Below are positions 3,973 to 36,554 of a DNA stretch of 64,000 bases, piece after piece. Position 1 is the first letter of the stretch. The number at the start of each line of letters is the position of its first letter. The notes under the pieces are model-generated. The model saw only the letters and a list, made by a program, of their open reading frames with translations. It was not told the origin of the DNA and searched no databases. Source of the DNA: Eledone cirrhosa (Eukaryota); contig OZ024741.1 in the NCBI GenBank assembly GCA_964016885.1, positions 196,106,001-196,170,000 on the forward strand. Reading direction: 5' to 3'. The translations under genes and the position numbers were made by a program.

Positions 3973-4103
3973 ACTTTTGTGCTTATATTGCTGACACATC
4001 CTCCAAAGATAGACACATCATTACAGCCAATGAGGGAAGTGCAGTAGGTTTAGCAACAGGCTACCACCTTGCAACAGGAAAGTATAGTTTGGTTTACCTC
4101 CAG
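3973..4103 (+). CDS. aepY: Ppd coding exon A (first in window): (D)[43 protein letters not shown]
   Basis: Acceptor ttattcttatag, donor CAG|gtaaga; contains the conserved Glu (ANEG) of the ThDP PYR domain; starts in phase 1. Confidence 0.92.
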
Positions 4104-34300: not shown

Positions 34301-36554
34301 TAAGTAGACCACATTAGGAATATAGAGCGAGTACCCGACCATAATGCTCATGCAAATTAATAGAAAAGCTGTTTAATAAACACAAACAACATTCCTACAT
34401 AAATTTTCTCATGCAATGATATAAATTAATCTATATTATAAAGCTGACGGCCGTATGTATGTATGTAACAAACTTTTTGCCAAATGGCTGGACCAAAAAG
34501 CGCCAAATTTGCACCATAGATGTAACTTTTTCCAAGTAAGAGTGTGAGAGTATTTTTGTCTTCTAAATTTCGTTAAAAGATTAAAGATATTTTATCGTTT
34601 ATTTAAATATTCATTTCTTTAAAATTTTCAAATGTCAACACTTCCGGTTATACTACATTCCTCTTTCTTTCTTTGTCTCTCTTTTTAGATAGATACATAG
34701 CTATAACGTCACGCCCTTATAATATGTCTCTGTATGTCTGGCTGTCTGCATTAGATACATAGCTATAACGTTGCATGCTTATAATATGTTTGTCTGACTG
34801 CCTGTCTGCATTGACTTCGCTTCTAACCAAATTTTAATTAATTCAGTGCAAAGATACCGCTCACCCTCTCAATAATTAATTATATATATATAATTAGTAA
34901 TAATAATAACTGTGAAGACTAAAATCCAAAGAGGGCTCAATAAGGATAAATATATATCAAATATAAAAGAACCCCAGAGCAAATATTGTTCTCATTGCTG
35001 ACGTATTATCTTCGCTTTTTTCTGCTCATTGCCAGGGAACGTCTTCACGAACCAAAGTATTGTCTTCCTGTTTTCCTTCGGCTGCAACATTTTTCGAAAT
35101 ATTTACTTCTGCGTTCACAGATTGATTTTTTTAGTTTCAGAAGATCCCGTTAAGGGTGAAAGCAGCGATTCTTTGCTTAAACTTTAATCTGTTATTTTAA
35201 TATATATATATATAATTATATATTCGTGTACAGATATTTTTGCATACACAAAAACAAAATATAAGCAAACATATTTATTTCATGAAAGCACAGATGGCTT
35301 ATCATCATTGTTATTGCCGATATGCCACCCAAAATGTCCCAGCCTGGCCGCAAGATCAGATTTTCCAGAAGACAAAATGTTACTAGAGCAACAGGGACTA
35401 AGCTTTGCGATTACCATCAACAAAGCTCAGGGTCAAACCCTAAAAGTGGCTGGCCTTCATCTGGGAAAACCATGCTTCTCCCATGGTCAATTGTATGTAG
35501 GATGCTCTAGGGTGAGCTCGCCAAACAATCTCTTCATCTTTGCTCCCAAGGACCGAACAAAAAATATTGTATACTCTGAGGCTCTAACAATGTAATTTAT
35601 GTATTTTCTGTTACTTGGAATTTCCATTATGGTTGTACAAATTATTGTAAAGTTTGTTAAAAAATGTGTTCTCTGTTCAGCCTTTATTGTTGTAACTATC
35701 AATTTTATTTAACATATTGGCTGCTGAACTGGGGAATCCTAAAAACTATTCAAACCCAACATCAGAGCACGCCCCCCCCCCCCCCCCTCACTGACTTGAG
35801 AGGGTGTGCGGTATCTTTGCACTGGAGTGGAGGGAGGATTCCTGAAAAGATAAAATGCCGGTATACCTAGCCGGGCGCCAGCCGGACAGGCCAGCTAGTA
35901 CTATATAAATACTAAGGTGCAGTCTTATAATAGAACAAGAGATTATTCGAGTTACTGGTTATGGATATATTGTGTTACTTCCCTCTTCATAGGGTGTCAG
36001 TTTCACCACCAATAATCATTTCACTCTCCAAATAAAAGGATTTCCATGTGTAGGCCTATTAGTTAGAAAATAGGCTTACTGCACCATATGTTTTCTGGAA
36101 CAAAAGGATGACGTTGGTCATCTAGAAAACACACATGGTGTTTATCAGGCTGTTTGCTGGCAAAGAAACCGAATATTAATAATATTACTATTCACTCATG
36201 GATACATTTAGGTATCCACCATGTTAAGAGCGAAAACGAATTTTCTTTTATATATAGATATATAATATATATATTATATATGCATATGTATGTATCATGT
36301 ACATGAGTGTATGATACAACTATATAGTTACTTCCTACTTTTGTTATATAAATATTTCTTTATTTTATATTCAGGCAAAAACAGCTATATCTGATGAAGA
36401 ATTAAAAGAAGGTGTTCTTTGGCTACGACAGACAACAGGGCCTGCATTGCTAGAAATAAAAGTTAACACAGGCGGACGGGCCGATTTGGGACGCCCTACA
36501 CGTACGACTCATGAGAACAAAACTGATTTTATGCACTTTTTAGCCATAAAGTAA
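3973..36554 (+). CDS. aepY: Spliced phosphonopyruvate decarboxylase (Ppd/AepY), 5'-partial; join(3973-4103,6730-6889,15979-16034,16459-16565,17654-17764,23581-23686,31292-31492,36375-36554)
   Basis: Manual splicing gives 1052 nt in one open frame (about 350 aa) ending in TAA. All acceptors are AG; donors are GT x6 and GC x1. Motifs seen: [81 protein letters not shown], ThDP-binding GDG...NN and C-terminal DLGRP, all characteristic of Ppd. Confidence 0.93.
4861..5045 (-). mobile_element. SINE family A (diverged head)
   Basis: Same central and 3' sequence as 1141-1324. Confidence 0.8.
6730..6889 (+). CDS. aepY: Ppd coding exon [54 protein letters not shown]
   Basis: Acceptor ctgatctag, donor G|gtttgt; joins exon A to restore YLQ-NSGLGN. 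Confidence 0.93.
6993..7605 (+). mobile_element. Three head-to-tail SINE copies (about 6993-7200, 7208-7412, 7419-7605)
   Basis: Three successive GAGTTCAAAT B-boxes, each followed by CTTTCATCCTT...GATAAAAT. Confidence 0.8.
7662..8033. mobile_element. MITE-like element with imperfect terminal inverted repeats and TA ends
   Basis: TACTCTCAGGTCCCAAATAA at the left end versus TTATTCAAGATCTGAGAGTA at the right end. Confidence 0.5.
10055..10590 (+). mobile_element. RTE LINE 3' fragment (subfamily B) with (GAT)n tail
   Basis: [14 protein letters not shown]...EKTRLT* and a 3' UTR nearly identical to 14445-14970. Confidence 0.9.
12100..12580 (+). mobile_element. Old RTE-clade LINE 3' fragment related to the 45773-47094 family
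   Basis: [13 protein letters not shown]...[15 protein letters not shown], with stops. Confidence 0.7.
12953..13260 (-). mobile_element. Mariner-like terminal fragment
   Basis: TACGAGG-type terminus followed by decayed transposase-like sequence; contains a roughly 35-bp internal duplication at 13133-13207. Confidence 0.35.
13395..13518 (+). mobile_element. 5'-truncated SINE family A
   Basis: B-box to GAAACAATT end, flanked by the ATTATTTTATTTGTTTA duplication (TSD). Confidence 0.85.
13780..14060. repeat. Imperfect 45-55 bp tandem repeat derived from an RTE 3' UTR (about 6 units)
   Basis: Repeated GCATGAC...TTACAGGGT.GACTGGGTG.(T)n.GTCATGGCA. Confidence 0.7.
14100..14970 (+). mobile_element. 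RTE LINE 3' fragment (subfamily B)
   Basis: GSETWAL...[13 protein letters not shown]...[11 protein letters not shown]...GRPRKTW, then 3' UTR and (GAT)n tail. Confidence 0.92.
15625..15895 (-). mobile_element. RTE-clade LINE 3' fragment (uninterrupted paralog of the Gypsy host element)
   Basis: Minus strand AAACCAACTGGCAGGAGACCCAGGGGTAGACCCCAAGCAGGATGGTTGGATAACATC ([19 protein letters not shown]), with a purine-rich tail. Confidence 0.65.
15979..16034 (+). CDS. aepY: Ppd coding exon C: (A)[18 protein letters not shown]
   Basis: Acceptor ttctttgtgtctttccag, donor CAG|gtgaat; phase 1 in, phase 0 out, matching both neighbours. Confidence 0.85.
16459..16565 (+). CDS. aepY: Ppd coding exon [36 protein letters not shown](E)
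   Basis: Acceptor ttttttatag, donor GA|gtatgt; matches the P-x-x-LLVR-x-x-TF segment of Ppd. Confidence 0.87.
17278..17386. repeat. (TTC)n microsatellite
   Basis: Directly visible. Confidence 0.97.
17654..17764 (+). CDS. aepY: Ppd coding exon [37 protein letters not shown](R)
   Basis: Acceptor cctttgatag, donor AG|gtaagc; contains TREEA and VSTTG-x-x-SRELFE motifs. Confidence 0.92.
18555..21814 (+). mobile_element. Internally deleted Gypsy LTR retrotransposon, CsRn1/Kabuki-like
   Basis: ACCC TSD (18551-18554 and 21815-21818); Gag from about 19332 (WFAQIESHF...LGD...PSQFL...CYYHSRFG); GGGAAAC slippery site at 20104-20110; RT N-terminus ([20 protein letters not shown]) fused to integrase C-terminus (PPYTGPY...VSVDRIK); PPT-like AAACGGAGGG before 21412. 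Confidence 0.85.
22026..23430. repeat. 59-bp minisatellite, about 24 near-identical copies
   Basis: Unit GTAAGGCTCAAGTGTATGAGGTGTGTACCAACGAATCTATGATCAGATGTTGATATACT; no spacers. Confidence 0.97.
23581..23686 (+). CDS. aepY: Ppd coding exon [36 protein letters not shown]
   Basis: Acceptor attatttcag, non-canonical donor CAG|gcaagt; contains [10 protein letters not shown]. Confidence 0.92.
23775..25945 (-). mobile_element. RTE LINE (subfamily C), 5'-truncated and frameshifted
   Basis: RT motifs [28 protein letters not shown], then a PHD-like Cys region and C-terminal RLRWYGHV; (GAT)n tail. Confidence 0.92.
26218..27274 (-). mobile_element. RTE LINE 3' fragment (subfamily B) inserted in the PLE
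   Basis: ORF 26579-27334 C-terminal RTE domain; (GAT)n tail at 26218-26236. Confidence 0.92.
27785..27827 (+). ncRNA. Hammerhead ribozyme-like motif (PLE copy 2)
   Basis: GTCA-CTGAGGA-G-GTCACA-GAATG-TGTGGC-GAAA-GAGC-TT-TGAT; homologous to 1586-1628. Confidence 0.55.
28600..29105 (+). mobile_element. R4/Dong-like LINE C-terminal (RLE) fragment
   Basis: [13 protein letters not shown]...RPDKVIWD...[14 protein letters not shown]; closely similar to 59482-60010. Confidence 0.85.
29109..30375 (-). mobile_element. RTE LINE 3' portion (subfamily A) with PHD-like finger
   Basis: ORF 29410-30387 from YADDL to the C-terminus; 3' UTR and (GAT)n tail. Confidence 0.93.
31292..31492 (+). CDS. aepY: Ppd coding exon [68 protein letters not shown]
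   Basis: Acceptor ttttcattttcaag, donor GAG|gttagt; contains the ThDP/Mg-binding GDG...NN motif and HDSVGGQ. Confidence 0.93.
31748..33950 (-). mobile_element. Degraded hAT-Charlie/Buster transposon (ZBED5/SCAND3-like transposase)
   Basis: CAGTGGTTCTCAACC terminus; BED-like [12 protein letters not shown]...[10 protein letters not shown] and C-terminal AF.SS.LVESGFS; many stops. Confidence 0.8.
31921..32105 (-). mobile_element. SINE family A inserted in the hAT element
   Basis: Full SINE with GTAAAACTAATTTAAT target duplication. Confidence 0.88.
33960..34310 (+). mobile_element. Tc1-like transposase N-terminal fragment
   Basis: [32 protein letters not shown] resembles a Tc1 HTH. Confidence 0.4.
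34430..35898 (+). mobile_element. Non-autonomous Helitron with PIF1-helicase C-terminal remnant
   Basis: A|TC 5' end, GC-rich subterminal palindrome (CCGG...CCGG) and CTAG|T 3' end; [13 protein letters not shown]...[13 protein letters not shown]...[10 protein letters not shown]. Confidence 0.88.
36375..36554 (+). CDS. aepY: Ppd last coding exon: [59 protein letters not shown]
   Basis: Acceptor tattttatattcag; contains the GP-x-x-LEIKV...DLGRP...ENK-x-x-FM C-terminus typical of Ppd; TAA stop. Confidence 0.92.
   Translation, partial: AKTAISDEELKEGVLWLRQTTGPALLEIKVNTGGRADLGRPTRTTHENKTDFMHFLAIK

What the first reader, a model, noticed from the sequence alone, without database searches (positions are those of the whole stretch)
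3973..36554. Hidden, intact, intron-rich phosphonopyruvate decarboxylase: an animal-encoded C-P bond (phosphonate) biosynthesis gene
Seen: eight short exons spread over 32.6 kb of TE-filled introns splice into a stop-free ~350-aa protein with the Ppd signatures (ANEG, QNSGLGN, GWRGEPG..DEPQH, STTG..SRELFE, GSMGH, GDG..NN, DLGRP). The ORF track shows only two fragments of it. Established: Ppd pulls the PEP mutase reaction forward, converting phosphonopyruvate to phosphonoacetaldehyde, the precursor of 2-aminoethylphosphonate; molluscs and cnidarians contain ceramide-AEP phosphonolipids, and vertebrates lack this biosynthetic route. Inference: this host (probably an octopus) makes phosphonates itself rather than taking them from diet or symbionts. 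Spliceosomal introns argue against bacterial contamination. The missing 5' exon(s) should hold the GVPDS motif and might add a targeting peptide or a fused domain. The pathway is known in molluscs, so the novelty is at the locus and lineage level.
Basis: partly seen in the sequence, partly recalled or inferred. Interest (0 to 1): 0.8.

Follow-up and report, generated by a model that had tools for sequence, protein, structure and literature searches.

The report
Octopus phosphonate gene beside its partner
This is an intact, intron-split octopus gene for a likely phosphonopyruvate decarboxylase, a known enzyme for making carbon-phosphorus lipids that is already annotated in related octopuses; the gene for the likely next enzyme of the pathway lies 13 kb upstream, and all three pathway enzymes are predicted to work inside mitochondria.

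Summary
Observation confirmed. Eight window exons (3973-36554; one GC-AG intron) join stop-free into 349 aa, gapless and 92% identical to RefSeq Octopus bimaculoides phosphonopyruvate decarboxylase (Ppd). Three more coding exons upstream give 458 aa; the motif is GIPDS. The family is Ppd, not ComDE. The genome also holds PEP mutase (another contig), AEP transaminase and phosphonatase. Host-encoded AEP synthesis was reported for coral in 2013 (PMC3640398), so the gene is a new member of a known kind.

(1) The single, intronless AEP transaminase lies 13.1 kb upstream on the same strand, with only repeat-like ORFs between. The two genes share a contig in 2 of 9 other species compared (both octopods), lie on different chromosome-scale contigs in 5, and 2 are uninformative. 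(2) Ppd, transaminase and PEP mutase all carry basic, acid-free N-terminal extensions like mitochondrial presequences, also in most extended homologs. This is a prediction from a crude score; a similar location is predicted for rhizarian protists. No RNA was available and activity is untested.

The parts
3973..4103 (+). Ppd coding exon 4 of 11 (ANEG, with the conserved Glu129). Exons 1-3, a micro-exon and the neighbouring AEP transaminase gene lie upstream of the window: G000:C2:196058767-196058856, 196078907-196078993, 196089212-196089229 (micro-exon), 196104967-196105114 (GIPDS exon); transaminase ORF 196044409-196045665, all on +
   Evidence: upstream parts
6730..6889 (+). Ppd coding exon 5 (NSGLGN, GWRG, DEPQH)
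15979..16034 (+). Ppd coding exon 6 (56 nt)
16459..16565 (+). Ppd coding exon 7 (end of the first domain and linker)
17654..17764 (+). Ppd coding exon 8 (STTG, SRELFE)
23581..23686 (+). Ppd coding exon 9 (GSMGH); followed by a GC donor
23687..31291 (+). GC-AG intron, 7,605 nt
31292..31492 (+). Ppd coding exon 10 (DGDG ... NN ThDP/Mg-binding motif)
36375..36554 (+). Ppd coding exon 11 (DLGRP, stop TAA); poly(A)-signal-like hexamer 122 nt downstream

Best explanation
The window holds the last eight of eleven coding exons of a single-copy octopod gene for a likely phosphonopyruvate decarboxylase, lying 13 kb downstream of an intronless gene for the likely next enzyme, AEP transaminase, and both, with PEP mutase on another contig, are predicted to be imported into mitochondria. 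Mechanism, inferred from family membership: PEP mutase rearranges PEP (possibly from a mitochondrial PEPCK) to phosphonopyruvate. Ppd uses ThDP and Mg to remove CO2 irreversibly, which pulls the unfavourable mutase step. The transaminase converts phosphonoacetaldehyde to 2-aminoethylphosphonate. AEP would then be exported and built into ceramide-AEP membrane lipids. Shown: gene structure, open frames, family scores, phylogenetic position, gene adjacency and the composition of the N-termini. Inferred: expression, catalysis, compartment, and any function of the adjacency.
For: Gapless 92% match to annotated O. bimaculoides Ppd. That ortholog scores 456.9 bits on TIGR03297 (cut-off 312.5), against 85.8 and 110.6 on ComD and ComE (cut-offs 147.95, 221.5). 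The window protein keeps 111 of 112 columns conserved in at least 90% of a 101-sequence alignment; the exception is V to I. The ortholog model (pLDDT 87.9) matches the B. subtilis Ppd chain 9iz4_B (target TM 0.88, rmsd 3.0). PEP mutase: 9 exons, 329 aa, open, 91% to O. vulgaris. Transaminase is over three cut-offs. Ppd and transaminase each gave one locus. N-termini: the first 25 residues have at most 1 acidic residue and net charge of at least +2 in all 3 own enzymes. Among listed homologs with an extension this holds for 18 of 20 Ppd, 68 of 79 transaminases and 56 of 58 mutases, and none has a signal-peptide-like hydrophobic stretch. It holds for 111 of 1,349, 139 of 1,670 and 58 of 1,168 internal windows of hand-picked sets, and for 1 of 75 bacterial-length Ppd. 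The crystallised Mytilus mutase (295 aa) starts at Met35 of the 329-aa genome-predicted protein, two residues after an Arg. The ortholog's extension is modelled mostly at low confidence, with one short helix near the start. Mutase and Ppd are predicted in rhizarian mitochondria (10.64898/2026.09.23.753574, passages). O. vulgaris muscle holds 29 CAEP species (PMC12335516, passages).
Against: The presequence test is my own two-number rule, not a trained predictor. It is also met by 14 of 37 transaminases and 17 of 45 mutases that lack an extension (2 of 78 for Ppd), and by the phosphonatase N-terminus. No set of known cytosolic animal proteins was available as a control. 37 of 120 listed transaminases lack the extension, including several molluscan models. 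The 295-aa Mytilus chain may simply reflect cloning from an internal Met. The genome also encodes a phosphonatase, so the transaminase may also or mainly degrade dietary AEP. Ppd and transaminase lie on different chromosome-scale contigs in 5 of 9 species compared. In Argonauta their accessions are 24 apart, so they may not be neighbours there. Ppd enzymes also accept sulfopyruvate and pyruvate (PMC11350588, passage).
Confidence: 0.75

Rival explanations
1. Same enzymes and pathway, but cytosolic or split between compartments; the N-terminal extensions are not import signals or are often skipped.
For: O. bimaculoides isoform models differ in the extension exons. The rule used is also met by some extension-less proteins. 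37 of 120 listed transaminases have no extension.
Against: Three unrelated enzyme families show the same kind of basic, acid-free extension in cnidarians and molluscs (two of them also in sponges), and bacterial-length Ppd lacks it. Exon 1 is kept in 6 of 6 O. bimaculoides RefSeq isoform models. There is a protist precedent.
Confidence: 0.15
2. The adjacent transaminase is mainly catabolic, working with phosphonatase on dietary AEP, and its position beside Ppd is a chance result of retroposition or rearrangement. This rival concerns the gene pair, not the identity of Ppd.
For: A two-exon phosphonatase is on contig C3. The genes are on different contigs in 4 bivalves and Nematostella and perhaps not adjacent in Argonauta. 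With thousands of enzyme pairs per genome, some neighbours arise by chance (inference).
Against: Only one transaminase locus was found, so biosynthesis would have to use it. The chance that any of 3 pathway pairs are neighbours is about 2-4 in 10,000. Linkage is seen in two further octopod assemblies.
Confidence: 0.4
3. The locus is another ThDP enzyme (ComDE, 2-hydroxyacyl-CoA lyase, acetolactate synthase), a pseudogene, or contamination.
For: UniRef labels several orthologs '2-hydroxyacyl-CoA lyase 2'. Foldseek's top three E-value hits are larger ThDP enzymes of other families. The substrate was not assayed.
Against: The ortholog passes only the Ppd cut-off among 15 families. The larger ThDP hits have rmsd of about 19-23 and 12-15% identity. 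The gene has ten introns, an open frame, sits on a 416-Mb contig, and groups with octopods.
Confidence: 0.03

Closest known systems
Octopus bimaculoides phosphonopyruvate decarboxylase, RefSeq XP_052827645-50
   Different: Another octopod species; GIPDS for GVPDS. The adjacency and the presequences are not part of the names given by the sources.
Acropora digitifera AEP pathway (Shoguchi et al. 2013, PMC3640398; passages seen)
   Same: Host-encoded, intron-containing PEP mutase, Ppd and AEP transaminase; same inference of de novo C-P synthesis.
   Different: The coral genes are on three scaffolds and the transaminase has 4 introns; here it is intronless and next to Ppd. The passages seen do not mention a compartment.
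Bacterial Ppd (TIGR03297; Bacteroides fragilis Ppd; Bacillus RhiEF, PDB 9iz3/9iz4) in ppm-ppd-aept neighbourhoods (PMC8942020, passages)
   Same: Same two ThDP domains and conserved columns; Ppd beside AEP transaminase.
   Different: About 80 extra N-terminal residues, including an animal-conserved segment just before the core. Ten introns; separate genes rather than an operon (inferred); mutase unlinked. RhiEF is split into two chains.
Mitochondrion-predicted PEP mutase and Ppd of anaerobic rhizarians (bioRxiv 10.64898/2026.09.23.753574, passages; it cites Gawryluk et al. 2016, not seen)
   Same: The same enzymes are predicted in the mitochondrial compartment, fed by PEPCK.
   Different: Protists, and also a prediction only; the transaminase is not named in the passages seen.
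Vertebrate gadusol gene pair EEVS and MT-Ox (recalled, from no call)
   Same: Two consecutive small-molecule biosynthetic enzymes as neighbouring genes in an animal genome.
   Different: That pair is widely conserved (recalled); this one is so far adjacent in one genome and linked in two more octopods.

Membership tests
Phosphonopyruvate decarboxylase (TIGR03297, EC 4.1.1.82) | Score above the curated cut-off of 312.5 bits | tested here: met
   Ortholog P0002 scores 456.9 bits. The window's exons scanned singly sum to about 340 bits over 6 of 7 exons, a rough sum. The joined window protein itself was not scanned.
Phosphonopyruvate decarboxylase | Pyrimidine-binding and diphosphate-binding domains in one chain, without the middle domain of PDC/AHAS-type enzymes (definition partly recalled) | tested here: met
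   PF02776 and PF02775 only, in 459 aa; the model matches Ppd chain 9iz4_B at rmsd 3.0.
Phosphonopyruvate decarboxylase | Catalytic Glu, GDG...NN cofactor motif and family-conserved residues | tested here: met
   E129, D337-G-D339-G, N366/N367, S105 and H194 are present; 111 of 112 conserved columns are kept. The roles of individual residues are recalled, apart from the general role of the Glu.
Phosphonopyruvate decarboxylase | PEP mutase present in the same organism | tested here: met
   Open 9-exon, 329-aa model at G000:C28:98845947-98770616, minus strand.
Phosphonopyruvate decarboxylase | Decarboxylates phosphonopyruvate in vitro | not testable with these tools
   No assay possible.
Sulfopyruvate decarboxylase ComDE (TIGR03845/TIGR03846) | Scores above cut-offs 147.95 and 221.5; usually two genes | tested here: not met
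   Ortholog scores 85.8 and 110.6; single chain.
2-aminoethylphosphonate transaminase (PhnW/AepZ; neighbouring gene) | Above the TIGR02326, TIGR03301 and NF010006 cut-offs; PLP lysine motif | tested here: met
   450.1 against 400.8, 439.2 against 360.8 and 465.9 against 296. SANK with K238 (role recalled).
Mitochondrial matrix proteins with a cleavable presequence | Basic, acid-poor, Ser/Thr-rich N-terminal extension without a hydrophobic core | tested here: met
   a crude rule with false positives, as reported.
Mitochondrial matrix proteins with a cleavable presequence | Import and cleavage shown | not testable with these tools
   Only the Mytilus 295-aa versus 329-aa hint.
Eukaryotic metabolic gene cluster | Non-homologous genes of one pathway as neighbours | tested here: met
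   2 of 3 pathway genes, 13,101 nt apart, same strand. The ORFs of 90 aa or more between them look like LINE debris or simple sequence (by eye); short exons of another gene are not excluded.
Eukaryotic metabolic gene cluster | Adjacency conserved across species | tested here: inconclusive
Eukaryotic metabolic gene cluster | Co-expression or shared regulation | not testable with these tools

The most novel reading that the evidence does not exclude
Animal C-P bond synthesis is a mitochondrial-matrix pathway: PEP mutase, Ppd and AEP transaminase carry presequences from cnidarians to molluscs, and the classic 295-aa Mytilus mutase is the processed form. In cephalopods a retroposed, intronless transaminase replaced the parent gene and now forms a selected, co-regulated two-gene phosphonate cluster with Ppd, a metabolic cluster assembled anew in an animal genome. 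My odds are about 0.8 for the mitochondrial part alone and about 0.3 for a functional cluster.
Probability: 0.25. Interest if true: 0.65.

Novelty: new member of a known kind. Interest (0 to 1): 0.36.

Why it matters
The gene is an expected member of a pathway already inferred for corals and annotated in octopuses. The value lies in two testable additions. A mitochondrial location would explain where the substrate and cofactor come from, and would imply an unknown AEP exporter. It would also tell people expressing animal enzymes to drop the presequence. A Ppd-transaminase pair would be a rare animal metabolic gene cluster whose origin could be dated in cephalopods. The three full gene models also make de novo phosphonate synthesis in an octopus directly testable by knock-down and isotope labelling.

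Tried and rejected
RNA evidence: no RNA holder listed. The 3 runs of 1 study, laid on window:15850-16700, read through intron sequence and show no splice joint, so they behave as DNA and say nothing on expression. A metagenome scan for loci of the transaminase gave 1 locus out of 136 candidate stretches: an intron-split relative on a 4.7-kb contig with no neighbour information. The ESM Atlas gave no usable hit for the N-terminal 82 residues of the ortholog. Earlier findings of this scan: none. The Mytilus PEP mutase isolation paper is not held, so the native N-terminus could not be checked. The careful Ppd tree did not finish; the quick tree is used, on 51 rows (21 long hits, 27 short hits taken as every third, 2 further named rows and the window model). 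The first PEPCK exon was not located; only an internal basic, acid-free stretch was seen. Accession arithmetic puts the O. bimaculoides transaminase within 381 index steps of the Ppd 5' fragment in the older assembly, but on two calibration points only; it is a weak hint and is not relied on. No complex prediction was run, since binding is not claimed. Intron positions could not be compared with other animals because no such genomes are held. Literature: nine full-text searches. In their listings and the passages read I saw no report of a mitochondrial location in animals or of Ppd-transaminase linkage. Subscription journals are largely missing, and I did not open supplements (the phylogenies of PMC3640398 are supplementary and may bear on origin). 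Rejected: fused domain, contamination, ComDE, pseudogene.
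Full report
Observation. A search for AG/GT-bounded open stretches found the two middle exons, and the borders were fixed by inspection. 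The eight exons span 32,582 nt and code 1,052 nt. Six introns are GT-AG and one is GC-AG; the two nearby GT alternatives shift the frame. Joined in a script they give 349 aa plus stop, aligning without gaps to O. bimaculoides XP_052827647.1 at 92% and Argonauta GAB1607510.1 at 88%. The window is G000:C2:196106001-196170000 in a 3.0-Gb genome.

Full gene. In 100 kb of upstream DNA three more coding exons were found by tblastn with the orthologs: C2:196058767-196058856 (start codon), 196078907-196078993 and 196104967-196105114 (GIPDS motif). An 18-nt AG/GT-flanked micro-exon at 196089212-196089229 matches a segment present in 4 of 6 O. bimaculoides isoform models. The eleven-exon model is open, 458 aa long and spans 83.8 kb. 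Exon 1 sits in the two 1-kb bins with the highest CpG ratio of the 164 kb examined. A family search of the genome returned 6 matches out of 6 candidates, all at this locus.

Family. Six of 7 exons scanned have TIGR03297 as best hit. The ortholog passes that cut-off and none of the other 14 families listed, ComD and ComE included. The window protein keeps 111 of 112 highly conserved columns. An AlphaFold model of the ortholog (pLDDT 87.9) matches chain B of Bacillus Ppd RhiEF at rmsd 3.0. The other 36 listed hits are larger ThDP enzymes at rmsd 19-23, three of them ranked above it by E-value. By sequence, the two RhiEF chains are the best PDB hits. In a quick tree of 51 rows the protein is sister to O. 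bimaculoides, then Argonauta, inside a 22-row clade that holds all named animal sequences (support 99).

Rest of the pathway. PEP mutase: 5 exon hits on contig C28, completed to an open 9-exon, 329-aa model, 91% identical to O. vulgaris. AEP transaminase: one intronless 418-aa ORF at C2:196044409-196045665 over three cut-offs, and 1 match among 5 candidates in a protein search of the genome. A two-exon phosphonatase lies on C3 and a PEPCK on C8. The genome thus has both synthesis and breakdown genes.

The neighbour. The transaminase ends 13,101 nt before the Ppd start codon, on the same strand. ORFs of 90 aa or more in between look like LINE debris or simple sequence (by eye). The chance that any of three pathway pairs are neighbours is about 2-4 in 10,000, without correction for the many loci of a scan. 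I compared other species by the contig lengths given for their records, 9 in all. Same length: O. bimaculoides (80,868,371) and Argonauta (4,891,981). Different chromosome-scale contigs: Mercenaria, Ostrea edulis, Solemya, Pinctada and Nematostella. Uninformative because of small scaffolds: O. sinensis and Ruditapes. Against strict adjacency, the Argonauta accessions are GAB1607486 and GAB1607510, 24 apart. The transaminase has 4 introns in Acropora (PMC3640398) and is intron-split on a metagenome contig. A full-length relative called on a 52.9-kb ENA contig groups in the sister clade of the octopod sequences (support 100, FastTree, 38 rows), which suggests that the intronless state is older than octopods (inferred). 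A sponge-like sequence also comes from a long ENA contig, so retroposition in cephalopods is plausible but not shown.

Compartment. All three enzymes have N-terminal extensions that bacterial-length Ppd lacks: the GxPDS motif starts at 77-125 in 19 hand-picked animal-type proteins and at 19-29 in 73 of 75 short ones, with no motif in 2. With a rule of at most one acidic residue and net charge of at least +2 in the first 25 residues, the three own proteins pass. Over all 120 listed hits per search, the rule is met by 18 of 20, 68 of 79 and 56 of 58 proteins with an extension, and by 2 of 78, 14 of 37 and 17 of 45 without one; 22, 4 and 17 hits lacked the anchor motif and were set aside. None of the extended proteins has a signal-peptide-like hydrophobic stretch. 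Internal windows pass in 5-8%. The solved Mytilus mutase begins at Met35 of the 329-aa predicted protein, after K-R-A, which fits an Arg-2 cleavage site (rule recalled) but could be a cloning start. The rule is crude: the phosphonatase start also passes. A preprint predicts PEPCK, mutase and Ppd in rhizarian mitochondria (10.64898/2026.09.23.753574, two passages). An internal stretch of the octopod PEPCK N-terminus is basic and acid-free, but its first exon was not found.

Mechanism. Established (PMC8942020 and PMC11350588, passages): the mutase equilibrium favours PEP; Ppd's decarboxylation pulls it; the transaminase yields AEP. O. vulgaris muscle contains 29 CAEP and 6 N-methyl-CAEP species (PMC12335516, passages); AEP-ceramide in T. 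cruzi is put down to its mutase (PMC5648825, passages). Inferred here: the three steps run in the mitochondrial matrix and AEP is exported for lipid synthesis. The transaminase may also serve breakdown with the phosphonatase.

Comparison and novelty. The ortholog is named Ppd in RefSeq for O. bimaculoides and O. sinensis. The intron-containing three-gene pathway and de novo synthesis were proposed for Acropora in 2013, and bdelloid rotifers express Ppd and the transaminase (PMC3499245, passages). The finding as written is therefore a new member of a known kind. The gene pair and the animal mitochondrial targeting were not seen in the listings of nine searches or in the passages read, but most subscription journals are not covered and targeting is easy to predict, so it may be noted elsewhere.

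Verdict. A real, intact, correctly identified gene, ordinary as such. It has modest added interest from the adjacent transaminase and the predicted mitochondrial pathway. Interest 0.36.

Noticed in passing
G000:C3:64782617-64775661 (minus; L029, L030): Two-exon phosphonoacetaldehyde hydrolase (PhnX-like) gene; exon scores 123 and 157.8 bits, together above the 220 cut-off as a rough sum. The octopus may also degrade AEP.
   Followed up: partly
G000:C17:24447110-24447424 (L031): A 300-aa open frame with a weak phosphonatase-family hit (E 7e-6), apparently another HAD-type hydrolase in one long exon.
   Followed up: no
G000:C2:196104967-196105114 (Ppd exon 3, about 1 kb upstream of the window; L002): A roughly 25-residue segment just before the bacterial start is conserved in molluscs, cnidarians, a rotifer and a centipede, and is modelled partly as a helix at moderate confidence. 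Its function is unknown; it may be a subunit or partner contact.
   Followed up: partly
G000:C28:98823875: The octopod PEP mutase has EGHNG where Mytilus has EAHNG; shared with O. vulgaris and Argonauta.
   Followed up: no
transaminase hits: Named crustacean, cockroach, echinoderm and hemichordate transaminases (about 374-387 aa) lack the extension, while most molluscan, cnidarian and sponge ones have it. These may be cytosolic catabolic forms or incomplete models.
   Followed up: partly
PEP mutase hits: PEP mutases with presequence-like starts occur in insects (Schistocerca, Anabrus, Neocloeon) and sponges, so the pathway reaches well beyond molluscs and cnidarians.
   Followed up: no
G000:C8:10163941-10175914: The one PEPCK locus found has a basic, acid-free N-terminal stretch, suggesting a mitochondrial form; the first exon was not located.
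   Followed up: partly
window 41827-47074, 57599-62648 and the Ppd introns: Many decayed LINE (endonuclease/reverse transcriptase) copies of several types, a Gypsy-like fragment at 19616-21185, transposase-like pieces at 32309-33378, and long microsatellites (classes by eye).
   Followed up: no
G000:C2:196009400-196013100 (L011): About 3.6 kb of a low-complexity tandem satellite with long open frames on the minus strand.
   Followed up: no
P0024, P0281, P0167 (public records): Pinctada Ppd is modelled as a 1,092-aa fusion with leucine-rich-repeat Pfam domains (family names recalled), and the O. bimaculoides and O. vulgaris transaminase models have divergent C-termini; these are likely gene-model errors.
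   Followed up: no
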